Of a stretch of 64,000 bases of DNA, positions 24,284-41,797 are shown piece by piece. The stretch is from a virus (taxonomy: Duplodnaviria; Caudoviricetes). Under the pieces are notes generated by a model that saw only the letters and a program-made list of their open reading frames with translations, did no database searches and was not told the origin of the DNA. Position 1 is the first letter of the stretch. Each line of letters begins with the position of its first letter. The translations under genes and the position numbers were made by a program. The stretch spans positions 55,121-119,120 of the IMG/VR virus record IMGVR_UViG_3300017911_002159. One strand, 5' to 3'.

Positions 24284-24694
24284 ATGTTTGGCTTGATACA
24301 GAGGATAGGATTCCTCGCTTTTTTATTAGTCCCTTCTTTTGCTCAGGCCGAAGAGATTCAGCCTGAGTTTTTTATTCATGACTTAACAAATGCTACAGCA
24401 TTGTTTAAAGCAGCAGACATGGGATGTGGAACCGTAGATGAAGATGTTTACAAATTTTTAATCAGAGGTTCTGCTGACTATCTGATGGAGACTGGTGCCT
24501 CAAGAATTCTTGCTGCACAGATGTTAAATGCTTTGGCAATTGAAATTGTTCAAAGTACAGAAAGATACATTAATTATCACGGTTGTGATAAATTTAACTC
24601 AGTTATGTTTGAGTTCAAAGACGATTACAAGATACTTAATGACGTTTTTGAAATATATAACATTTCGTTTGACAGTGAAGAAATACAGTTGTAA
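24284..24694 (+). CDS. exported hypothetical protein
   Basis: Signal peptide ending AQA. Confidence 0.6.
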   Translation: MFGLIQRIGFLAFLLVPSFAQAEEIQPEFFIHDLTNATALFKAADMGCGTVDEDVYKFLIRGSADYLMETGASRILAAQMLNALAIEIVQSTERYINYHGCDKFNSVMFEFKDDYKILNDVFEIYNISFDSEEIQL

Positions 24695-24704
24695 ATAAAT
24701 AGTT

Positions 24705-24954
24705 GTGTTCTTGTTGAGGATTCGACAAAAGCTATGCAGGACAGGAGTGCAAATCTCCTCACCTCCACCACAAGCATATTAAGGTATGTTTCTGATGGGG
24801 GTGACTTAGGATCGACTGGTAGTAAGTAGCTTATCTGAGAGAGCAAAAAAAATAGTTGCTAATAACTATGACAAACCTTCCGTAGCTCTTGCAGCATAAC
24901 GGGTTGGGCTTGATTCGGGGAGCCTAGAAACAGAAGGGGGATAACTTATCCCCC
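24705..24954 (+). ncRNA. ssrA: circularly permuted (two-piece) tmRNA, tag ANNYDKPSVALAA
   Basis: T-arm and CACCTCC-A-CCA (24760-24770) precede GGGGGTG (24797-24803) with G3:U70; tag ORF 24858-24899; ends approximate. Confidence 0.9.
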
Positions 24955-32735: not shown

Positions 32736-32755
32736 TTAAAAAGGATTAGAAGAGA

Positions 32756-33241
32756 ATGGTTTTAAGTCCGTTAAAGGAAGACAAAGATGTAAGATGGATT
32801 GATCCTGATACAGGAGCAGCGGCATGCACTTACAACACTTGTCGTCAAAAGTTTGAGCAAGTGACCCTGACCCATACTTACACCTTTAATACACATAAAG
32901 ATGACATCGATGGTCCTACAAAAGATCTAGAGTTTTACTTTCATGTTTGTCAAAGCTGTAATAGAAAGCTTATTTCACAAACAGACACAATCAAGACTAA
33001 AGAAAACTATAGAGACTTCAAACATCCTAAGACCAGAGAAGAGCTACCGTCTTTTGATAAGGATAGAACAGCTATCCAAAAGATTCAGAAGAAGATGTTT
33101 GATGAGTATGACCCTAAAGAAGTAGAAGATGATGGATTCATCACAGTTCATCCTAATCAACACTATGTTGATAGAGATATTGAATCCCCTCTATTGACCA
33201 ATGAACAATATGATAAGATCAAGAGACTAGAGAATGGTTGA
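32756..33241 (+). CDS. hypothetical protein, possible Zn finger
   Basis: CTYNTC and CQSC pairs. Confidence 0.6.
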   Translation: MVLSPLKEDKDVRWIDPDTGAAACTYNTCRQKFEQVTLTHTYTFNTHKDDIDGPTKDLEFYFHVCQSCNRKLISQTDTIKTKENYRDFKHPKTREELPSFDKDRTAIQKIQKKMFDEYDPKEVEDDGFITVHPNQHYVDRDIESPLLTNEQYDKIKRLENG

Positions 33242-33374
33242 AGCCTTAATTGCTATCCCAACTATCATATTCTTTATCTTCACGATTATACTAGCATGGA
33301 CAGTCATAGGTTTACTCATATGGTATGTCTTAGATAGACTGATTAATCTTTATAAAAAAAGGGGGCAAGATTAG
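33234..33374 (+). CDS. small membrane protein
   Basis: MVEALIAIPTIIFFIFTIILAWTVIGLLIWYVLDRLINLYKKRGQD*. Confidence 0.45.
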   Translation: MVEALIAIPTIIFFIFTIILAWTVIGLLIWYVLDRLINLYKKRGQD

Positions 33375-33381
33375 CCCCCTT
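33354..33381. terminator. terminator between convergent genes
   Basis: AAAAAAAGGGGGC-AAGATTA-GCCCCCTT. Confidence 0.65.
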
Positions 33382-33589
33382 ATCCATGTAGTGTAACAAA
33401 ACCACGAAACTTGTCTTTAGACGTATCCCATTCTTGTATCATACTGCGTGTTTTATCTTCACCAGCAAAGTCTACAGACTCTCTAGTGTTTTCATCTATC
33501 CATGCTTGAGCAGCTTTTCTAGACGTAAAGCCTACTACCTGTTCTTCACAACCAGAATAGTCAGTCCAGTTAGCAATGTAGATCTTCAT
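33380..33589 (-). CDS. hypothetical protein
   Basis: MKIYIANW.. with AGGAG RBS. Confidence 0.6.
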   Translation of the reverse strand: MKIYIANWTDYSGCEEQVVGFTSRKAAQAWIDENTRESVDFAGEDKTRSMIQEWDTSKDKFRGFVTLHG

Positions 33590-33600
33590 AACAACAACTC

Positions 33601-33717
33601 CTATTGTAACCAAGCAGGTCCGAAGGCAACAGAGATAAAGGAAAACACTAGAGCCATAAACATAACACCAACAGGTAACACCATAAACTGTAGAAAGTAA
33701 CTCCACCAACTTCTCAT
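33601..33717 (-). CDS. small membrane peptide
   Basis: MRSWWSYFLQFMVLPVGVMFMALVFSF.., AAGGA RBS. Confidence 0.5.
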   Translation of the reverse strand: MRSWWSYFLQFMVLPVGVMFMALVFSFISVAFGPAWLQ

Positions 33718-33751
33718 CTCAAAACATCCTTTCTTTAACCTCATAGAGAAT

Positions 33752-33780
33752 AGTATACAAGCTCCTACAAGACATGTCAA
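33752..33780 (-). promoter_or_regulatory. sigma70-type early promoter
   Basis: TTGACA-N17-TATACT. Confidence 0.8.
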
Positions 33781-34190
33781 GAATAAAACAATAAACACCT
33801 CGACAGTCCCTTAAACCCCCGTCAGCAAGGCTTAGAAGGCGTTTAAACAGGGTACAGTGTCAGGTAGTGTTACAATTAAAAAAACGTTTCTTTTTAAAAC
33901 AAGAAAACGAAAGGATGTACTATCTTTGAATTAGAATGGTACACCTGTACTATAGAATGATAACATCTATAGTCAGTGCTTAAGAGAAATGTCTTTGTAA
34001 GTTCAGCCCGCAAAATATTTCAAATTTTATTTAATATTTACGTTGAGCTATGCACTCAGTGCATGTCAATAGTTATTTTTGCATAGCATGCTAAGTTTGC
34101 ATAGCTGCCATAACAATAAAGTGGCTTATCAAATGATTCCATATATGAGAGACTATAAGAGTAAGTTAACCGATGATATTGGAGTTCATC

Positions 34191-34490
34191 ATGTCTTATA
34201 CGTTTAGCATTCTCAAATCTGACGATTCTTTTTGCAGCGTCACGATTCCCTCAAATTCGAGACAATATGCAGAAGAAATTTTTGCTGAGACTGTCTCAAA
34301 TCCGAAATTTAAATCGGAACAATTTGATACAAAGTTTACGAGACTTGCTGGTGAAAATCTAAAATCCGAAGAATACCGAGACGCCATTGGTAAAGCTTGG
34401 GTCATGACTCGGAAGCAGCAGGACGAAATCGATCAAATTTTAGATGAAGATTGGGATGTGGATCCTATGTGTCCAAGCAATTTTTACTAA
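34191..34490 (+). CDS. hypothetical protein isolated in non-coding region
   Basis: GGAG RBS; hairpin GGGGAGC-TTCG-GCTCCCC at 34501-34518. Confidence 0.6.
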   Translation: MSYTFSILKSDDSFCSVTIPSNSRQYAEEIFAETVSNPKFKSEQFDTKFTRLAGENLKSEEYRDAIGKAWVMTRKQQDEIDQILDEDWDVDPMCPSNFY

Positions 34491-34898
34491 AATTTTAGCC
34501 GGGGAGCTTCGGCTCCCCACTATTTAAAATTTGATCTACCCGGACGATGGGGGCAGCACTCGGATTTTTTTCCGCAGTGTTAGAGTCAGAAACCAAACCT
34601 GCCATATTTTTAAGTACCCCAAATTTTAGACAAATATATTCAGTATTGTATGGATAGGGTATGATAGATAAAGTTTAAAACAAGTCTTATGGTACAAGTG
34701 TACTATACATAAAATTTTAGACAATGTTTAGAGTACAATTGTACCATGTACAACTATGTCTGTATTGCATACCAGTCATGCATAAGGGGGGGATGCAAAT
34801 TAGATTTTGTGGCATGGGGTTTGCATGCTAGAATTATGCCCCAAATAAAAATTTCGATTTTTACCTTAATTGAAAACTCCGCCCAAAAAAACAAAAAT

Positions 34899-35036
34899 AA
34901 ATTTTAGAGAAATACCTTTTTGATTTAGTTTAACTTCCCTAGGCAAAAAATGCGGCAGTATAAAATTTTAGAAAAAACCCTTTTTAAATTATCTTAACTT
35001 CCCTAGACCCAAAAAATCGGGCCGCTAAAATTTTAG
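34899..35036. repeat. ~64-bp imperfect tandem repeat with AAATTTTAG and TTAACTTCCCTAG
   Basis: AAATTTTAG at 34899, 34963, 35028 (also 34490, 34621, 34712); TTAACTTCCCTAG at 34930, 34994. Confidence 0.8.
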
Positions 35037-35250
35037 GTTTTACCCTCGACATTCCAAAAATGCATGGCAGATATGCAGGGGCAAAAATGTTCTTGCAACA
35101 TGTCTTATCTTGTGGCACTATAGGACCATGAAAAGCGAGAACAGCAACGGAAACGGAAGCGCTTTCTTTCTTGTTCTTATGCGTGGCAAGCAGTCACCAT
35201 ATAGAGAAAGACAAGCAAACGGATTTTCTAAAATTGTTTTCGATTTTCTA

Positions 35251-35279
35251 TTGACTTCAAAAATGCTTTGGTTTAATAT
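35251..35279 (+). promoter_or_regulatory. sigma70-type early promoter
   Basis: TTGACT-N17-TAATAT. Confidence 0.7.
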
Positions 35280-35338
35280 CAGGGCAAGCTTAGGAAAGCG
35301 GCAACGTTTCGGCCTAGGCAAGCGGAAGAAAAAAAGAC

Positions 35339-35367
35339 TTGACTTCAAATATGGTTTAGTTTAGTAT
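35339..35367 (+). promoter_or_regulatory. sigma70-type early promoter, near-copy of 35251
   Basis: TTGACT-N17-TAGTAT. Confidence 0.7.
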
Positions 35368-35376
35368 CTTCCTACA

Positions 35377-35655
35377 GTAAGCGGCAGGTGCACACCTGTT
35401 TTACAAAAGCGTGTTTTGCAACGTAATGGATTTTGTGTAGTGTGCAAATAGATTCCTTAGGGATGCACAAAATCGGGCTTCTAGTAGTGGGATGGCAACC
35501 ATGAAAGAATGCTCAAACCGCCGTGGCCGGGTAAATTGTCAGAGGGCTGAAGAACGTGAAGGTGGGCAGTCAGAATCCCTAAGGATCGGTAAAAAATCTT
35601 CAAGCTTTGCTTGAACCGGTTTGTTGCGGGGCTTCTCACTACTGTCCCGCAACCA
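35377..35655 (+). ncRNA. putative structured ncRNA with two long-range pairings
   Basis: No credible ORF, GC-elevated, multiple stems; 35454-64/35575-85 and 35483-92/35634-43 complementary. Confidence 0.6.
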
Positions 35656-35794
35656 TGACCCCTTGTGTTGTTTTTGGCGATAGCGAAAACTTTGTATCAA
35701 ATTTGATCTTCTCCTCCCATATAATGTAATTTGGTACGACTCCAAACTGTTTTCGTTATCACCTAAACCAACACTAGATAAAGGTTTAGAAAAA

Positions 35795-36076
35795 ATGACT
35801 GAGTTGAACGAATACGGTTACCCGCTGCATGACTTGTCTGTCAGCCTTGAAATGCAACGATGCATCAACAGATTGTTTGCTGCACTGAATGACGTGAATT
35901 CAGGGGATCGACTCGAATATGCTGTTGCACTGAAGCTTGACCGATATGGTGACGCACTTCGTGAAATTCGACGTGCTGAAGATAATGTAAAATACTTTCG
36001 GCAGATTGTTGAGGCCAAAATCAAAAACACTGAACAACTGCAACTTGACCGTGAACGTGAAAAAGTTGTTGACTAA
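35795..36076 (+). CDS. early hypothetical protein
   Basis: ORF with AAGG RBS. Confidence 0.6.
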   Translation: MTELNEYGYPLHDLSVSLEMQRCINRLFAALNDVNSGDRLEYAVALKLDRYGDALREIRRAEDNVKYFRQIVEAKIKNTEQLQLDREREKVVD

Positions 36077-36097
36077 CGAAATATGGTTTGGTAAGAT
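36069..36097 (+). promoter_or_regulatory. sigma70-type early promoter
   Basis: TTGACT-N17-TAAGAT; spacer shares AAATATGGTTT with 35339. Confidence 0.7.
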
Positions 36098-36120
36098 AAG
36101 TTATCAAATGAGGTGATGAA

Positions 36121-36303
36121 ATGACTGATCAAATCGACAACACTTCCCGACTCAAGCATATCGACGAATTGCTTGATCACCTTGACGAACAAATTCTAAA
36201 TCTGGACTTGCCCAAATACATGAAGCGCCGTCTTAGCGGTCAAGTCTATGCACTCTATAACAAGCTTGAACAAGCTGTTGATGACTTCACTCCAATGCAC
36301 TGA
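36121..36303 (+). CDS. early hypothetical protein
   Basis: GAGGTG RBS. Confidence 0.6.
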   Translation: MTDQIDNTSRLKHIDELLDHLDEQILNLDLPKYMKRRLSGQVYALYNKLEQAVDDFTPMH

Positions 36304-36309
36304 GGTGAA

Positions 36310-36594
36310 ATGATGTACTCTTTACAAAAAGGTTCTGAAGGATACGTAGCCGCCTACGCTATCAATGTAAAACGTCTTAAGAATTCATGGCACGGCAATC
36401 CACAGTTTGAGATTGGTTTTGCATTCAAGAAAGATGCAACACTTTCAAAATTTACTGCAAAGACAGAAGCAAATTCAATGCTTGCTTACAAAATCTGTCC
36501 CCATTGGACTGAGGGCAAGCAATATGCCTTAACACTGACTAAGCCACGCAAAAACCTTTACATCAAAGAAATGACTGAGGTGCAAAATGTTTAA
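36310..36594 (+). CDS. early hypothetical protein
   Basis: GAGGTG RBS; RLKNS..GNP.F motif. Confidence 0.6.
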   Translation: MMYSLQKGSEGYVAAYAINVKRLKNSWHGNPQFEIGFAFKKDATLSKFTAKTEANSMLAYKICPHWTEGKQYALTLTKPRKNLYIKEMTEVQNV

Positions 36595-37207
36595 CAAGCA
36601 TCAACCCCATATCGGCAAATTTGCCGCTGAGTCACCCGAAAACACTGTCAGAGTGTTTCTCTTTGTAGTTGCCACTATCCAGCAACAATTCCACACTGTT
36701 GCTGCAATTGTCAAAGACGCTGAAGAATATGGTTTAGAATCAAAACACCTTTGGGGTCACAAGGCCAAGTCGATGGAGTACGTAATCGAAAACAAACAAT
36801 CTCTTTACGATGCAATCTTTGATCCAAATATGGATTTAGAAGATAAGCTTCTTTCGGTTGCAGAGGTTCCGGGTATCGGACTTGTAAAGGCCGGGTTTGT
36901 TCTGCAACTCTGTATCGGTGAAGTCGGTTGTCTGGATGTTCACAATCTACGCCGCTTTGGTCTGGATGCTCAGACTTTCAAACTTGGTAAAGTCAAATAT
37001 CTTACTGCAAGGAAAAAAGCAACACTCTATCTTGAAACATGTATTGACTGCGGTAATTGTGAAACACTGTGGAATGAATGGTGCCAACTTATTGCGGACA
37101 AGTATCCTAAACGCTGGAATGATGCAAATCACGTATCTGCAACTCATGCAGAAATTATCACTGGATCAATCCCGTTTATTATGGGGGAAGTAATCTATGC
37201 AGCCTGA
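36587..37207 (+). CDS. helix-hairpin-helix DNA glycosylase-like protein
   Basis: VPGIGLVKAGF followed by VGCLDVH. Confidence 0.6.
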   Translation: MFNKHQPHIGKFAAESPENTVRVFLFVVATIQQQFHTVAAIVKDAEEYGLESKHLWGHKAKSMEYVIENKQSLYDAIFDPNMDLEDKLLSVAEVPGIGLVKAGFVLQLCIGEVGCLDVHNLRRFGLDAQTFKLGKVKYLTARKKATLYLETCIDCGNCETLWNEWCQLIADKYPKRWNDANHVSATHAEIITGSIPFIMGEVIYAA

Positions 37208-37421
37208 TATTGATAAACGACATGGCGGACCGTGGGACCGGGGCAAAGCTGACTCTTACTATAGCCGTTCACCAAAACCACATTATTACAATGTAAATCG
37301 TGACGCTGAAAAGATTTACGAAAAAGTAGAAATGTCAGATATGTCAGACAATGAAATATCTGAATACTATGCAGGTTATGAATACAACGAAATGACTGGT
37401 GACCGAAAAGACTGGGGCTGA
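37197..37421 (+). CDS. conserved phage hypothetical protein
   Basis: RHGGPWDRGKADSYY.R...PHYY, Y.AGY, KDWG. Confidence 0.7.
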   Translation: MQPDIDKRHGGPWDRGKADSYYSRSPKPHYYNVNRDAEKIYEKVEMSDMSDNEISEYYAGYEYNEMTGDRKDWG

Positions 37422-37423
37422 AA

Positions 37424-37834
37424 ATGAATTATGAATATATGACTGATGATCAAATCGATGCACAAGTTGTTATGCTTCATAAAATGACAGATGAGCACCG
37501 TGAACAAAAACACACACAAGCACAAATCCCGATGAGTGTAGTGCAAGACGTTGTAAGGATTGTAAAGGCTGACTTTCCACAAGAACCTTATGACGATATG
37601 GAAGATAGACGCCTTGCAATGGCCTTGTGGGACTTTCAATGCATGAAATACGGTGACCATATCGGAGAAGGTGCTTACCGGGTTGTGTTGCCATACATCG
37701 AGAACAAACTGGATTCACTCGAAATTGCTAGAGAACATGAAGACTTGTTCGACAAAGACCGTCGATTGAAAGCATTCATTCAATCATATCATATTGCAAT
37801 GTTTCTGCGTGCAATGGATTACTTGGTGGAGTAA
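37424..37834 (+). CDS. early hypothetical protein
   Basis: ORF in co-directional run. Confidence 0.6.
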   Translation: MNYEYMTDDQIDAQVVMLHKMTDEHREQKHTQAQIPMSVVQDVVRIVKADFPQEPYDDMEDRRLAMALWDFQCMKYGDHIGEGAYRVVLPYIENKLDSLEIAREHEDLFDKDRRLKAFIQSYHIAMFLRAMDYLVE

Positions 37835-37839
37835 AGAAA

Positions 37840-38235
37840 ATGGGTACTCGTTCTTTTATCGGAATTGAAAACGAAGACAACTCAGTAAAATACGTTTACT
37901 GCCATTGGGATGGCTATCCTTCCCACAACGGCAAAATTCTAAATGAACACTATACTGACCGAAAGTCAGTCAATAAGCTTCTTGAAGGCGGCGATATGTC
38001 TGTACTAAAAGAAGATATTACTAATGTTGAATACTATAACCAAATGAGGGGACAGGATCCAGACAATGATGCCGCAATTGTGGATAACATGGAAGTTTTT
38101 CTGGAAGACATAAAAAATTCTTGGTGTGAATGGGTTTACATCCTGAATAAAGATAATAAGTGGATGGTCTCATCTGATTCAGACTGGTCAGACATGAAAC
38201 CACTGAATGAAGTTTTGAGTGAAGATGACTCTTGA
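37840..38235 (+). CDS. conserved phage hypothetical protein
   Basis: MGTRS.IG....VYCHWDGYP...G..L..HY. Confidence 0.7.
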   Translation: MGTRSFIGIENEDNSVKYVYCHWDGYPSHNGKILNEHYTDRKSVNKLLEGGDMSVLKEDITNVEYYNQMRGQDPDNDAAIVDNMEVFLEDIKNSWCEWVYILNKDNKWMVSSDSDWSDMKPLNEVLSEDDS

Positions 38236-38259
38236 CTTTTGGAATCGAAAGAATATAAT
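38232..38259 (+). promoter_or_regulatory. sigma70-type promoter
   Basis: TTGACT-N16-TATAAT. Confidence 0.7.
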
Positions 38260-38279
38260 TGACTGTGAAGGAAATGAAT

Positions 38280-38498
38280 ATGAATGAAAGTGAATATCCA
38301 ATATCCTTTGGACAGAAGATGGATGCAGTCTTAGCAACCATGATTCTTGAAGGTTCCTATGATGAAGCTACTGAAGATGATCACGTGACTTCTCTTCAAT
38401 ATCTTATTGATACTGGAGTTGTTTGGCATCTTCAGGGTTCTTATCAACGAATGGCGCAGCATGCCATTGAAAATGGCATTTGCTCTAAATCTAACTAA
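38280..38498 (+). CDS. conserved phage hypothetical protein
   Basis: QYLIDTG.VW.LQGSY.R.A..IE.G; start uncertain. Confidence 0.6.
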   Translation: MNESEYPISFGQKMDAVLATMILEGSYDEATEDDHVTSLQYLIDTGVVWHLQGSYQRMAQHAIENGICSKSN

Positions 38499-38572
38499 AA
38501 CACCTTGACTAAGACAAACATGTTGTGATATTGTTTGTCTATTGAATAGCCAATCTACATCATGAAGGAAAT

Positions 38573-39565
38573 ATGAAAATGGCTCACGAAATCGAAATCA
38601 TCGACGGCAAAGCACAGATGGCATATGCTGGTGAAGTGCCTTGGCATGGTCTAGGTACTCAGGTATCACCTGATTCCTCACCACAAGATATGCTGGAAGC
38701 AGCAGGTCTTAATTGGGATGTTGTCAAACAGCCCTTGTGGTACGGTAAAGGTAACAACCGTCAAGTTATCGACAACAAAGCAGCATTGGTGCGGGAAACC
38801 GATAATCAACTAATGTCTATTGTCGGTAACAACTGGCATCCTATCCAAAACTCAGAAGCTTTCGAGCTATTCACTGAGATGTGTACTAACGGTGACATGG
38901 AAATGAATACCGCTGGCTCTCTCAAGAATGGTCAGATTGTTTGGGGTCTGGCTAAGGTCAAAAAGTCTTTTGCTCTTAAGACCCAAAAAGGTGAAGATGT
39001 AGTAGATTCATATCTGCTGTTTTCTAATCCACATGAGTTTGGCAAGTCTGCAGACGTAAAGTTCAGCCCTATCCGGGTCGTCTGCAACAATACTCTGACT
39101 GCAGCCTTGTCAAATGGCAAGTCTTCTGTTAGGGTTACTCATCGGACTGCTTTTGACCCTGAACACGTCAAGAACCTGCTTGGGATCGCTGACATGAAGC
39201 TTGATACTTATCAAGAAGCTGCAGAGTTCCTTGTATCAAAGCGGTTCAAGCCTGACGATCTGGTCCAATACTTCAACCAAGTCTTTCCTGTATCAAATCA
39301 GGCTAAGGCTATGAAGGTAGCGGATTCAGTTATTGAGAGCCTTTCCTACACTGCAAGGAAAGCTGTCAACGTCATGGATGAGCAGCCCGGTGCCGAGCTA
39401 GGTGAAGGAACGTGGTGGCAAGCTTTCAATGCCGTTACCTTCCTTACCGACCATGAACTTGGCCGTTCTGCAGATGCTCGACTGCAGTCTGCTTGGTACG
39501 GACCTAACAACGCTGTTAAGTCCAATGCTCTCAAGCTGGCGACCGAGTTTGCAAATGCCTCCTGA
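38573..39565 (+). CDS. DUF932 family protein
   Basis: MAYAGEVPWHGLG, TAGSL..G, PIRVVCNNTL, WQAFNAVT..DH. Confidence 0.85.
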   Translation: MKMAHEIEIIDGKAQMAYAGEVPWHGLGTQVSPDSSPQDMLEAAGLNWDVVKQPLWYGKGNNRQVIDNKAALVRETDNQLMSIVGNNWHPIQNSEAFELFTEMCTNGDMEMNTAGSLKNGQIVWGLAKVKKSFALKTQKGEDVVDSYLLFSNPHEFGKSADVKFSPIRVVCNNTLTAALSNGKSSVRVTHRTAFDPEHVKNLLGIADMKLDTYQEAAEFLVSKRFKPDDLVQYFNQVFPVSNQAKAMKVADSVIESLSYTARKAVNVMDEQPGAELGEGTWWQAFNAVTFLTDHELGRSADARLQSAWYGPNNAVKSNALKLATEFANAS

Positions 39566-39583
39566 GGTATTCCTCCCGAAACT

Positions 39584-39609
39584 TGGGGTGCTTCGGCACC
39601 CCATTTTTT
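39584..39609 (+). terminator. intrinsic terminator
   Basis: TGGGGTGC-TTCG-GCACCCCATTTTTT. Confidence 0.9.
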
Positions 39610-39625
39610 CCCTCTTAGAAATTGA

Positions 39626-39654
39626 TTGACAACTTAAGTTCCTTATGGTACTAT
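39626..39654 (+). promoter_or_regulatory. sigma70-type promoter
   Basis: TTGACA-N17-TACTAT. Confidence 0.7.
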
Positions 39655-39679
39655 ACCATATGTTGAAAGGTGTTATATT

Positions 39680-39949
39680 ATGATTATGCTTAACAAAGAT
39701 GTTTACGACTACATCAAAAGTGCTGACAACGAAACTCTCAATGCAATCATTACACAAATCAATCGACGGCGTAGTGCTCTTCAAGAAGAGGCCACGGATA
39801 ACTTTGTCGTAGGTCAGGCTGTAGAGTTCACTCGTAAAGATGGTGATATTGTTCGGGGTTCTATCCAGAAGATCAACCGTAAGACAATCCATGTAAAGAC
39901 TGACTTTGTGACGTGGAAAGTATCGCCTAGCCTTCTTCGTGCAGCATGA
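39680..39949 (+). CDS. hypothetical protein (SH3-like C-half)
   Basis: VGQ.V.F....G.I.KINRKT..V....W.VSPSLL. Confidence 0.65.
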   Translation: MIMLNKDVYDYIKSADNETLNAIITQINRRRSALQEEATDNFVVGQAVEFTRKDGDIVRGSIQKINRKTIHVKTDFVTWKVSPSLLRAA

Positions 39950-40176
39950 TGAAATCAATTAATCTTGATACATCATTTGACGATGGTTTTTGTATCAAAG
40001 AAGAAATAGCTGTACTTGCCAGAATTTACATTCACGCAGCCTTAGACAAGGCTGATGGCAACAAGACAAAAGCTGCAAAGCTTTTGGGTCTTCCGTCATA
40101 TCAAACACTGAACAACTGGATGGAAAAATACAATGTACTATGCCCAAATTCATATGAAGTCAGATCATCAAAGTAA
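39946..40176 (+). CDS. Fis/NtrC-type helix-turn-helix protein
   Basis: ALDKADGNKTKAAKLLGL.S..TL..WM.KY. Confidence 0.75.
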   Translation: MMKSINLDTSFDDGFCIKEEIAVLARIYIHAALDKADGNKTKAAKLLGLPSYQTLNNWMEKYNVLCPNSYEVRSSK

Positions 40177-40378
40177 GTATTACCTAACCCCTATCTATAA
40201 GACGGTTAAGGAAACGATGAACTACTACTATAACAGACTTCGGCCAACTTTCTATGAAGATGTTTCTAAAATATATTTGTTCAAAATGAAACGTAGCCGT
40301 GGTCGGTACGGTCAGGTCATAGGTAAAGCACACAGTACACGGGATGCAGACTTTAAAATCTTGGAGAAATGGATGTGA
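40133..40378 (+). CDS. hypothetical protein
   Basis: ORF in run. Confidence 0.45.
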   Translation: MYYAQIHMKSDHQSKYYLTPIYKTVKETMNYYYNRLRPTFYEDVSKIYLFKMKRSRGRYGQVIGKAHSTRDADFKILEKWM

Positions 40379-40510
40379 ACTGTTCGTCATGTATGTGGTG
40401 CACAAAGCATGTGATCTTTGGCCTTCAATGTCAGAGATACCCAGCACCCGCCTCAACTACACTTGACTACTTTTGTGGTGAATATGTTGCTAGACAGAAA
40501 GTTAGATCAA

Positions 40511-40678
40511 ATGAAAGTAAATCAAAAAATGCTCGACTTCAACGCTGAAGAAATTCGGCGTGTAGAAACAGCTATCAAAGAGACACCAGAGAACAGCAAA
40601 TCAACTCTTGGGTATGCTATGCTTCAGGCACGTCTAAAGGCTTTGAAAGAAATTGAGGAAGAAGCTGATGTCACATAA
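40511..40678 (+). CDS. hypothetical protein
   Basis: ORF; start uncertain. Confidence 0.45.
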   Translation: MKVNQKMLDFNAEEIRRVETAIKETPENSKSTLGYAMLQARLKALKEIEEEADVT

Positions 40679-40850
40679 AGGAAACGACGAGACTTTTTCT
40701 CAAGCTAAGTATTACATCGAAAAGTTACGTAGAGAAGTTGATCAATGGTACGGACCTAAGAATGATGCTTACAAAATGAAACAGATTGACCTCGCAACCG
40801 CTGAAAAACTTTTACGGCAAGCTGAAAAAATGGAGAATAAATATGCTTAG
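40668..40850 (+). CDS. hypothetical protein
   Basis: GAGGA RBS, overlapping start. Confidence 0.5.
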   Translation: MSHKGNDETFSQAKYYIEKLRREVDQWYGPKNDAYKMKQIDLATAEKLLRQAEKMENKYA

Positions 40851-41052
40851 GTATTATGTACGTTGGACAGCGCCAGACCTTTCTACCACTGTTAGACGGT
40901 TTAATAAAGAATCTGATGCTGTAGAATTTGCTGAAGGCAAAGCCTTTGAGTTTCGAAGATACAGCCAGCAAGTAGACGTTTGGGATAGCCAGACTGGTAC
41001 ACTGACAGCAATCGCTGTTGATTCGCCTGATAATATGATTGAAGGAGCTTAA
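40843..41052 (+). CDS. hypothetical protein
   Basis: GGAG RBS, overlapping start. Confidence 0.55.
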   Translation: MLRYYVRWTAPDLSTTVRRFNKESDAVEFAEGKAFEFRRYSQQVDVWDSQTGTLTAIAVDSPDNMIEGA

Positions 41053-41054
41053 CA

Positions 41055-41369
41055 ATGGAACGGATGACAAGAACCCGTCGAGAGCAATTGATTGAAACTT
41101 ATGTAGAAACGGTAGTAGAACATATGGACTTGGGTGAGCTTATGCTCTATGCTCAAGAACAGATGGCAATGGGAATGGATCATTTAACTGACGAAGAGGT
41201 GTTAGAAGATATTACATCACTTCTTGCATGTGAGTATGATGATGATGAAATCCAAAAGCTGTACCGTTTCACCAAAGAAGAAAATGCAATCATTGATGAG
41301 ATCAATGCAAAAAAAATTGATAAACAGGTGATGGCTACAATTCGAGAAAACGGAGCAATGCCTCTATGA
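41055..41369 (+). CDS. acidic hypothetical protein
   Basis: AAGGAG RBS. Confidence 0.6.
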   Translation: MERMTRTRREQLIETYVETVVEHMDLGELMLYAQEQMAMGMDHLTDEEVLEDITSLLACEYDDDEIQKLYRFTKEENAIIDEINAKKIDKQVMATIRENGAMPL

Positions 41370-41587
41370 AGACCAAAGAAGTAAACCTGAAAGTTCGTCC
41401 CCTTGAACTGGATATGCTGATCGACGTGATCCGCTTCACCACAAACCTCAAGAACACTCTACCAGAGGGTTCTATGAAGGAGATGGATGACGAACCTATC
41501 TTCAACAGACCCGGTGAAGCACTTCTGGCTTATCTAGAAGAGATGAAACAGAAGGTCGAGACACAGCCTTCTTACACTATTCAATAA
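41366..41587 (+). CDS. hypothetical protein
   Basis: ATGA overlap. Confidence 0.55.
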   Translation: MKTKEVNLKVRPLELDMLIDVIRFTTNLKNTLPEGSMKEMDDEPIFNRPGEALLAYLEEMKQKVETQPSYTIQ

Positions 41588-41797
41588 TAAAAAAACTCAT
41601 GCTGCTACGAGGAACGCTAATGAAAATATGTTATAAGAAAACAAAGGAAGACAAGACAATGTTTGCTTTTGGCATGATCTGCGTTTTGATTATTGCTCTT
41701 TCAGTCCTCGTACTTTTATGGAGAGCATAGTTGACTTTCCCTGATCTTCTTTGTATACCATTTGTTATGGTATTAAGGAGAAGGAGATCAGGGAAAA

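What the first reader, a model, noticed from the sequence alone, without database searches (positions are those of the whole stretch)
35377..35655. ~280-nt early ncRNA candidate with two long-range loop pairings
Seen: starts ~10 nt after a sigma70 promoter, has no credible ORF and is GC-elevated. Stems: GGCAGGT/ACCTGTT; GATTTTGTGTA 35429-39/TGCACAAAATC 35464-74; CAAACCG 35514-20/CGGTTTG 35617-23; TTCAAGC/GCTTGAA; GTTGCGGGGC 35623-32/GTCCCGCAAC 35644-53. The loop TCCTTAGGGAT 35454-64 pairs perfectly with ATCCCTAAGGA 35575-85. AGTAGTGGGA 35483-92 pairs with the terminal loop TCTCACTACT 35634-43 (one GU). The region ends in ACCA. G-U pairs favour selection on RNA rather than DNA. I do not recognise the class. 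Inference: a compact tertiary-folded RNA such as a ribozyme, protein decoy or anti-defence RNA.
Basis: partly seen in the sequence, partly recalled or inferred. Interest (0 to 1): 0.82.

Follow-up and report, generated by a model that had tools for sequence, protein, structure and literature searches.

The report
Conserved structured early leader RNA
An uncultured marine T4-like phage carries a ~280-base untranslated, unusually well-conserved and folded RNA stretch at the head of its first early operon, followed by a long processing-type hairpin; it matches no known RNA family, but evidence for a special function is still thin.

Summary
No Rfam family matches.

Five close relatives from ENA, Logan and a marine metagenome (93-97% identical) carry the same element. 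It is the best-conserved stretch locally: 7.9% variable sites against 24.5% in the adjacent gene. The few changes inside six of the helices all keep the pairs, including one A-U to G-C swap in H2.

- The second loop pairing (35483-92 with 35634-43) is broken in four of seven relatives. It also cannot coexist with the full H6 stem.
- Nothing marks ACCA as a 3' end. There is no terminator, and conservation runs on.

Downstream lies a 108-nt hairpin (35666-35773) with clear pair-preserving variation, then the start of a 93-aa orphan gene.

My best reading is that this is the main structured domain of a long early 5' leader on the + strand. It is probably cut off at an RNase III-type hairpin. Whether it acts in cis or in trans is unknown. 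It is a candidate new RNA motif confined to one narrow phage clade. The scan noted it before only on this same genome.

The parts
35251..35279 (+). Upstream sigma70-like promoter P2 (TTGACT-17-TAATAT), reading into the same transcript
   Evidence: Conserved in L111, L088, L089 and L090. The scanner found no terminator between it and the element (its stem loop limit is 3-8 nt).
35339..35367 (+). Promoter P3 (TTGACT-17-TAGTAT); predicted start about 35374-35377
   Evidence: The -35 box is invariant; the -10 box is TAGTAT or TAGAAT in relatives.
35377..35655 (+). Structured, highly conserved untranslated RNA domain (the finding)
   Evidence: 93-97% identical in five relatives. Variable sites 7.9% against 24.5% in ORF93. 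No Rfam hit.
35383..35400 (+). H1: 5'-proximal hairpin (5 Watson-Crick pairs plus 2 G-U, loop GCAC)
   Evidence: Invariant in relatives, so uninformative.
35429..35474 (+). H2: 11-bp hairpin with a 24-nt loop
   Evidence: Compensatory A-U to G-C at 35430/35473 in L088, L089 and L090.
35454..35464 (+). PK1 5' arm, in the H2 loop and abutting the H2 3' strand
   Evidence: 11 of 11 Watson-Crick pairs with 35575-85. Duplex -17.1 kcal/mol. Invariant in all relatives.
35575..35585 (+). PK1 3' arm, inside the domain closed by H4
   Evidence: As for the 5' arm. 97% pair probability even in a nested ensemble.
35507..35564 (+). Invariant G-rich core
   Evidence: No substitution in five relatives.
35514..35520 (+). 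H4 5' strand
   Evidence: 7 bp with 35617-23. C35617 to U gives G-U in L088, L089, L090 and L093.
35617..35623 (+). H4 3' strand
   Evidence: As for the 5' strand.
35599..35615 (+). H5: 7-bp hairpin with a variable loop (UUU, UU or AAA)
   Evidence: Stem invariant, loop varies. Pair probability 0.9 or more for six of its seven pairs (0.54 for the outermost).
35623..35653 (+). H6: 10-bp GC-rich hairpin with a hypervariable C/U-rich loop (35633-43), followed by CA
   Evidence: Stem invariant in six of seven sequences; three disruptive changes in L093. The loop differs at four positions plus one inserted base between the two lineages.
35483..35492 (+). Upstream partner of the H6 loop ('PK2'); lineage-specific and probably not a conserved structural pair
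   Evidence: 10 bp in the window and L092, 9 bp in L111 (A35492U). Broken in L088, L089, L090 and L093.
35666..35773 (+). Long irregular hairpin: 22-pair lower stem, 12-pair upper stem, variable C/U-rich apex. Candidate RNase III site separating the leader domain from the mRNA.
   Evidence: MFE z = -4.9. Lower stem is 100% paired in six distinct sequences, with four wobble-type changes and joint deletion of one pair. Upper stem has one A-U to G-C swap.
35795..36076 (+). First early ORF (93 aa, orphan), preceded by AAAGG at 35781-85
   Evidence: Third-position bias in its substitutions.

Best explanation
The stretch is the main structured domain of a long untranslated 5' leader RNA, made from the + strand at the start of the phage's first early operon.

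Transcription starts at tandem sigma70-type promoters (35251-79 and 35339-67) and runs through the 280-nt domain without a detected terminator. It continues into a 108-nt hairpin (35666-35773) and then into a 93-aa orphan gene.

The domain folds as two parts. A 5' hairpin (H2) pairs through its loop over 10-11 bp with a single-stranded segment inside a 3' domain closed by H4. That 3' domain also carries H5 and H6. This makes an H-type pseudoknot with about 21 stacked base pairs.

Inferred, not shown: host RNase III cuts the long hairpin, as in the T7 early region. This would release a roughly 300-nt stable 5' RNA and a short-leadered mRNA. The released RNA, or the uncut leader, would then act on early gene expression or on a host factor. 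The C/U-rich, fast-changing loops of H6 and of the long hairpin are the likeliest contact surfaces.
For: SHOWN
- Helices far beyond chance, and asymmetric between strands.
- Promoters present and conserved.
- No terminator-like site detected on the + strand before ORF93 other than the palindromic H5 hairpin, which I discounted: weak 7-bp stem, broken T-run, conservation continuing past it.
- Homologues in L111, L088, L089, L090, L093 and L092.
- The domain has 7.9% variable sites against 24.5% in ORF93, with a 58-nt invariant core.
- Variable sites are depleted in the six core helices: 3 of 102 against 20 of 178, Fisher p = 0.01. All three keep pairing, one as an A-U to G-C swap and one as G-C to G-U.
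- The pseudoknotted model scores -76.8 kcal/mol plus about -17 for PK1, against a nested MFE of -85.9.
- The long hairpin has z = -4.9. All 22 lower-stem pairs are kept in six distinct sequences, through U-A to U-G, G-U to G-C or A-U, and A-U to G-U changes, plus loss of both partners of one pair. These work only for + strand RNA.

INFERRED
- RNase III cleavage. This rests on my own knowledge of the T7 layout (tandem A1-A3 promoters, the R0.3 site, then gene 0.3) and on RNase III needing about two turns of imperfect duplex.
Against:
- Only four distinct full-length sequences, all 93% identical or more, so covariation rests on single events. The shuffle controls are not significant.
- The helices were picked on the window's own sequence.
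- The nested MFE z-score is only -1.15.
- RNAalifold prefers a different nested fold, in which PK1 is an ordinary long-range helix and H2 and H4 do not form.
- H6 carries three disruptive changes in L093.
- No homologue in about 1 Mb from more distant relatives, by nhmmer or by a covariance model. The element is therefore young or fast-evolving outside this clade.
Confidence: 0.5

Rival explanations
1. It is a stand-alone, trans-acting early ncRNA, such as a protein decoy, anti-defence RNA, anti-SD-type regulator or ribozyme. Its 3' end would be made at or near the H6-CCA hairpin, so it would be independent of the downstream gene.
For: - Nucleotide-level conservation above that of the neighbouring gene.
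- A large pseudoknotted fold.
- Hypervariable C/U-rich loops displayed on stable stems, as in seed or target-recognition loops.
- CCA after H6 in all seven sequences.
Against: - No terminator or other 3'-end signal at 35655.
- Conservation and selected RNA structure continue straight into the leader hairpin.
- No known ribozyme or sRNA family matches, even at E up to 10.
- No match to the loop complements elsewhere in the window.
- No T-loop or acceptor-type end pairing; ARAGORN and Rfam tRNA/tmRNA models are silent here.
Confidence: 0.2
2. It is a cis-acting sensor or regulator of the early operon. This could be a new riboswitch-like aptamer, or a polymerase-modifying (put-like, antitermination) leader. 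The long hairpin would be its expression platform, next to the ribosome-binding site of ORF93.
For: - It sits directly between the promoters and the first gene.
- It has an invariant core plus a pseudoknot, as in many aptamers.
- The CCUU/AAGG pairing at the base of the long hairpin touches the AAAGG ribosome-binding site in the MFE fold.
- Related marine myophages are reported to use riboswitches (PMC9004378).
Against: - There is no terminator or anti-terminator alternative, and no clear SD sequestration.
- At 280 nt it is larger than most aptamers.
- No Rfam riboswitch hit.
- The regulated genes are orphans, so no ligand logic can be drawn.
Confidence: 0.13
3. The conserved stretch encodes a small basic protein. 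The frame is 35492-35614 (40 aa), or starts at ATG 35501. The RNA structure would be incidental, or would regulate this protein's translation.
For: - The frame is open in all relatives.
- 4 of 6 substitutions against L088 fall on third codon positions.
- The lineage-specific H6-loop pairing covers the start region 35483-92.
Against: - A 1-nt deletion in L088, L089 and L090 moves the stop and adds about 26 codons.
- ATG 35492 is TTG in L111.
- 19 consecutive codons show no synonymous change, while ORF93 has about 20 third-position changes per relative.
- No family hit, and gene callers called nothing here on the relatives.
Confidence: 0.07
4. It is a DNA-level element, such as an origin, a packaging or protein-binding site, or a cruciform. 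The inverted repeats would act as duplex DNA.
For: - It lies beside a 1.3-kb repeat-rich, nearly gene-free divergence region.
- The 11-bp PK1 arms are a perfect inverted repeat 110 bp apart.
Against: - The G-U pairs and all wobble-type substitutions fit only the + strand RNA.
- The motif is not enriched elsewhere in the window.
- The same 10-mer inverted pair at this spacing occurs by chance in 17 unrelated metagenome contigs.
Confidence: 0.05

Closest known systems
Phage T7 early leader: tandem promoters A1-A3 followed by RNase III site R0.3, ahead of gene 0.3 (own knowledge, Dunn and Studier 1983; not retrieved here)
   Same: - Tandem host-type promoters.
- A several-hundred-nt untranslated leader.
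- A long imperfect hairpin directly before the first early gene.
   Different: - No sequence relation.
- The leader here contains a large conserved pseudoknotted domain, more constrained than the gene it precedes.
- Cleavage is not shown.
- The phage is T4-like, where long early leaders are not the rule.
Large or medium structured ncRNAs of unknown function linked to phages (Rfam GOLLD, ROOL, HEARO, raiA and similar motifs)
   Same: - Defined so far only by conservation and predicted structure.
- Phage context.
- No known function.
   Different: - None of these models matches.
- This element is known from one narrow clade, with too little divergence for a covariation-proven structure.
Two-piece tmRNA and tRNA-like 3' ends
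   Same: - A GC-rich terminal hairpin followed by CCA.
- Pseudoknots.
- The same phage carries a permuted tmRNA at 24665-24946.
   Different: - No T-loop.
- The 5' and 3' ends do not pair into an acceptor stem.
- No tRNA, tmRNA or Y-RNA model hit.
- The base before CCA varies (A, or U in L093).
HK022 put RNA and other promoter-proximal antitermination leaders (own knowledge)
   Same: A structured RNA made immediately after early promoters and acting in cis on the transcribing polymerase would fit this position.
   Different: - put is about 70 nt, with two simple stem-loops.
- No sequence or structural likeness.
- No downstream terminators identified here.
C/U-rich anti-SD loop sRNAs (CcsR/'cuckoo', RsaE-type)
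   Same: Pyrimidine-rich loops on stable stems: the H6 loop and the apex of the long hairpin.
   Different: - The loops vary between 93-97% identical relatives: CUCCUCCC becomes CUUCUCAC.
- No family hit.
- Much larger scaffold.

Membership tests
Any Rfam 15 family | Covariance-model score at or above the gathering threshold | tested here: not met
   Whole window at gathering score: only tmRNA and two tRNAs, elsewhere. Region 35000-36000 at E up to 10: only noise. The mir-303 model hit on the minus strand merely traces the long hairpin.
tRNA-like / tmRNA | Acceptor stem formed by the 5' and 3' ends, a T-arm with a T-loop, and NCCA | tested here: not met
   ARAGORN finds nothing here, and there is no tRNA or tmRNA model hit. 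The 3' hairpin H6 is self-contained with an 11-12-nt non-T loop. CCA is conserved but the preceding base is not.
RNase III-processed phage early leader (T7 R0.3 type) | Tandem host-type early promoters upstream of the first early gene | tested here: met
   Promoters at 35251-79 and 35339-67, both conserved.
RNase III-processed phage early leader (T7 R0.3 type) | Imperfect duplex of about 20 bp or more between leader and coding region, maintained as RNA | tested here: met
   Hairpin 35666-35773: 22 + 12 pairs, z = -4.9, pair-preserving variation on the + strand.
RNase III-processed phage early leader (T7 R0.3 type) | Actual cleavage by host RNase III | not testable with these tools
   Needs an in vitro cleavage assay, or 5'/3'-end mapping in infected cells.
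H-type pseudoknot (H2 + PK1) | Hairpin-loop bases pair with a distal strand, with loop lengths able to span the stems | tested here: inconclusive
   Topology and loop lengths are feasible (L1 = 14 nt, L2 = 0, L3 = 101 nt), and the energy is competitive. H2 has one compensatory pair, but the PK1 arms never vary, so PK1 has no covariation evidence.
   Broken in L088, L089, L090 and L093. There is 0 nt between the pairing strand and the H6 3' strand, so the loop cannot span a 10-bp stem (geometry inferred from Pleij's pseudoknot rules, own knowledge).
Riboswitch | Conserved aptamer coupled to a terminator or an SD-sequestering expression platform | tested here: inconclusive
   No Rfam riboswitch hit, and no terminator-like site other than the discounted H5 palindrome. 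Only a weak 4-bp contact reaches the ribosome-binding site.
Protein-coding small ORF | Conserved frame and stop, with a synonymous-biased substitution pattern | tested here: not met
   The stop is shifted by a 1-nt deletion in three relatives. 19 codons carry no synonymous change.

The most novel reading that the evidence does not exclude
The roughly 300-nt pseudoknotted RNA is released from the early leader and is a new class of phage-encoded, trans-acting takeover RNA. Its invariant core would bind a host factor. Its fast-evolving C/U-rich loops would pair with purine-rich host or defence transcripts, giving lineage-specific targeting.
Probability: 0.18. Interest if true: 0.75.

Novelty: new variant of a known kind. 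Interest (0 to 1): 0.42.

Why it matters
Early untranslated RNAs of T4-like phages of marine bacteria are almost unexplored. This element is held more constant than the protein gene beside it and sits at the very first transcribed position of the early region. It is therefore a good candidate for a regulatory or host-takeover RNA. With more homologues it could become a new RNA family.

The adjacent hairpin is a cleaner and directly testable case of a phage RNA processing or regulatory structure.

If the stretch is only a leader, the result is ordinary but still useful. It corrects the 'double pseudoknot, ACCA-ended ncRNA' picture.

Tried and rejected
- **Rfam:** nothing at gathering score or at E up to 10.
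- **INPHARED phages, blastn:** no match.
- **IMG/VR, exact 33-mer of H6:** none.
- **Related loci through ORF93:** none. Through the 206-aa ORF and the DUF932 gene: 86 loci from distant relatives.
- **Those 86 loci, about 0.9-1.0 Mb:** no homologue by blastn or nhmmer, nor by covariance model R1.
- **HMMER of the ORF93 family against 1.8 billion representatives:** only its own cluster plus coiled-coil noise.
- **IMG/VR 18-mer scan:** three cyanophage-like contigs share only a 20-21-nt stretch in an hsp20-like 5' UTR, about chance level.
- **IMG/VR 19-mer of the core:** none.
- **GTDB genomes, two 20-21-mers:** none, so no sign of a host-derived copy.
- **tRNA-like reading of the ACCA end:** rejected (see the membership test).
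- **DNA-motif reading of the PK1 arms:** rejected.
- **Phage targets complementary to the two C/U-rich loops:** none in the window.
- **ORF-free-gap screen for analogous leaders in distant relatives:** uninformative.
- **Inverted-repeat scan:** missed the long hairpin because mismatches break the seeds.

Full report
**Context**

The window is the last 64 kb of a 119-kb IMG/VR virus record. It is a T4-like myovirus:
- It has UvsW, gp46-like and family-B polymerase genes. The polymerase is about 49% identical to those of cyanomyophages.
- It carries a permuted alpha-type tmRNA at 24665-24946 and two tRNAs.
- Marine pelagi- and methylo-myophages are reported to carry such two-piece tmRNAs (PMC9004378).

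The finding lies at the head of a rightward block of small orphan genes. It sits just after a repeat-rich, nearly gene-free region.

All the stated complementarities are present at the stated coordinates.
- In 279 nt there are three maximal helices of 10 bp or more with at most one G-U. A fourth has 11 bp with two G-U. None of 2000 dinucleotide shuffles reaches three (mean 0.13).
- The complementary strand keeps only one, because the G-U pairs become A-C.
- The promoter TTGACT-17-TAGTAT (35339-67) is found by the scanner. It shares its TTGACT -35 box with the three other sites of this pattern, all on the + strand between 35251 and 38259.
- GC and G-skew are mildly raised.
- Rfam gives nothing, at gathering score or at E up to 10.
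- Against this, the nested minimum free energy is unremarkable (z = -1.15).

**Homologues**

- The INPHARED phages and 86 IMG/VR loci from distant relatives (50-62% protein identity in neighbouring genes) contain no copy. This holds for blastn and nhmmer and for a covariance model run over about 1 Mb.
- The downstream 93-aa ORF has six homologues at 76-85% identity, all inside one 50% cluster.
- Their contigs, plus one marine metagenome contig found with a gapped PK1 pattern, give four full-length copies: L111, L088, L089 and L090. They also give two partial copies, L093 and L092. All are 91-97% identical to the window where they overlap (93-97% for the four full-length copies).

**Selection**

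| Stretch | Variable sites across the five full-length sequences |
|---|---|
| RNA domain | 7.9% |
| Interior of the downstream hairpin | 19% |
| ORF93 | 24.5% |

- ORF93 shows the third-position bias expected of a real gene.
- Positions 35507-35564 never change.
- The 40-aa frame inside the domain is not the constraint. Its stop is moved by a 1-nt deletion in three relatives, its first ATG is TTG in L111, and 19 consecutive codons lack any synonymous change.
- The constraint is therefore on nucleotides, not on a protein.

**Structure**

- In the six helices H1, H2, PK1, H4, H5 and H6, only 3 of 102 positions vary, against 20 of 178 elsewhere (Fisher p = 0.01).
- All three changes keep pairing. 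A35430G with T35473C turns an A-U pair of H2 into G-C. C35617T turns a G-C pair of H4 into G-U.
- PK1 is invariant, so it is neither proven nor disproven by covariation. It is the most stable element: -17.1 kcal/mol, and 97% probability even in a nested ensemble.
- H2 with PK1 forms a sterically sound H-type pseudoknot with a 14-nt L1, no L2 and a 101-nt L3.
- With H2, H4, H5 and H6 enforced, the energy is -76.8 kcal/mol plus the PK1 duplex. The nested optimum is -85.9.
- RNAalifold prefers a nested alternative that explains only one of the three changes.
- With four distinct sequences the formal shuffle controls are not significant. The fold is plausible but not established.

**What fails**

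The second loop pairing (35483-92 with the H6 loop) exists over 10 bp in the window and L092, and over 9 bp in L111.
- In L088, L089, L090 and L093 the loop differs at four positions plus one inserted base, while its partner is unchanged. Duplex energy drops from -13.9 to -4.1 kcal/mol.
- Ten of the eleven loop bases would have to pair, with no linker back to the H6 3' strand. That cannot coexist with the full 10-bp H6.
- One chance helix of this size is expected in about 13% of shuffles.
- The clustered change could also be a templated (quasi-palindrome) mutation, or diversifying selection on an exposed loop.

H6 itself carries three disruptive changes in L093, which also reads TCCA rather than ACCA.

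Nothing marks 35655 as an RNA end. The only terminator-like site the scanner reports on this strand is the palindromic H5 hairpin, which I discount, and conservation continues past that point.

**What follows the domain**

Positions 35666-35773 fold into a long irregular hairpin (z = -4.9).
- Its 22-pair lower stem is fully paired in six distinct sequences.
- The stem shows four one-sided changes: U-A to U-G, G-U to G-C, G-U to A-U and A-U to G-U.
- In L090, both partners of one pair (G35685 and C35754) are deleted together.
- The upper stem has one A-U to G-C swap and loses two U-G pairs.
- These changes make sense only for + strand RNA. This independently shows that the region is transcribed rightward and selected as RNA.
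- The C/U-rich apex (CUCCUCCC in the window) is not conserved.
- The hairpin ends 8 nt before AAAGG and 21 nt before the ATG of ORF93.

The hairpin shows a U-G to U-A change. No scanner-detected terminator separates this promoter from the domain.

**Interpretation**

The element is best read as the dominant structured domain of a leader running from about 35286 or 35375 to 35794. It is not a discrete ACCA-ended gene.

The layout is tandem host-type promoters, then a long leader, then a duplex of more than 20 bp, then the first early gene. This parallels the T7 early region, with its RNase III site R0.3 (own knowledge). I therefore infer processing at the long hairpin. That would liberate a 5' RNA of about 300 nt.

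Whether that RNA works in trans, or whether the leader works in cis, cannot be decided here. Candidate trans roles are a host-factor decoy or anti-SD-type pairing through the C/U-rich loops. Candidate cis roles are stability, antitermination or sensing.

My rough odds are:

| Reading | Odds |
|---|---|
| Leader domain, processed or not | 0.5 |
| Discrete trans-acting ncRNA | 0.2 |
| Riboswitch-like or antitermination element | 0.13 |
| Small protein | 0.07 |
| DNA-level element | 0.05 |

**Novelty and score**

The element belongs to no described RNA family, and no host copy was found. It is known from one narrow clade of uncultured marine phages, with too little divergence to prove the fold and no expression data.

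It is a reasonable candidate for a new RNA motif, and the neighbouring hairpin is solid. The more striking claims, the double pseudoknot and the tRNA-like end, do not hold. Interest: 0.42.

Noticed in passing
window 35666-35773: This long hairpin just 3' of the finding has much better comparative support than the finding itself. All 22 lower-stem pairs are kept in six sequences, including joint deletion of one pair. Its CUCCUCCC apex is not conserved between close relatives.
   Followed up: yes
window 35633-35643 and relatives L088:2476-2487: The H6 loop differs at four positions plus one inserted base between lineages that are otherwise 93% identical. The L088-type loop motif UCUCUUCUC reappears in the apex of the long hairpin of L111 and L092. 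This could be diversifying selection, or a templated (quasi-palindrome) mutation.
   Followed up: partly
L095:8331-8351, L096:2117-2137, L097:2869-2889: A 20-21-nt stretch covering the PK1 5' arm and the H2 3' strand (CCTTAGGGATGCACAAAA) occurs in the 5' UTR of an hsp20-like gene in three cyanophage-like IMG/VR contigs. One independent match is about what chance predicts for an 18-mer in this collection.
   Followed up: partly
window 24665-24946: Rfam finds a permuted (two-piece, alpha-type) tmRNA (92 and 62 bits), but ARAGORN does not report it.
   Followed up: partly
window 35288-35320: A small hairpin downstream of promoter P2 (GCUUAGG...CCUAGGC, with an inner GCAA-loop stem) shows a U-G to U-A change in L088, L089 and L090. 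The untranslated region upstream of the finding therefore also looks selected as + strand RNA.
   Followed up: partly
window 34112-34481: The 105-aa ORF 34173-34490 and its surroundings have no counterpart in relative L088. L088 is otherwise collinear from 32743 to 41685, so this is an indel in the repeat-rich divergence region.
   Followed up: no
window 35599-35615: H5 is a perfect palindromic hairpin. The scanner also scores it as a weak terminator on the minus strand, followed by GATTTTTTAC. No minus-strand gene reads into it.
   Followed up: no
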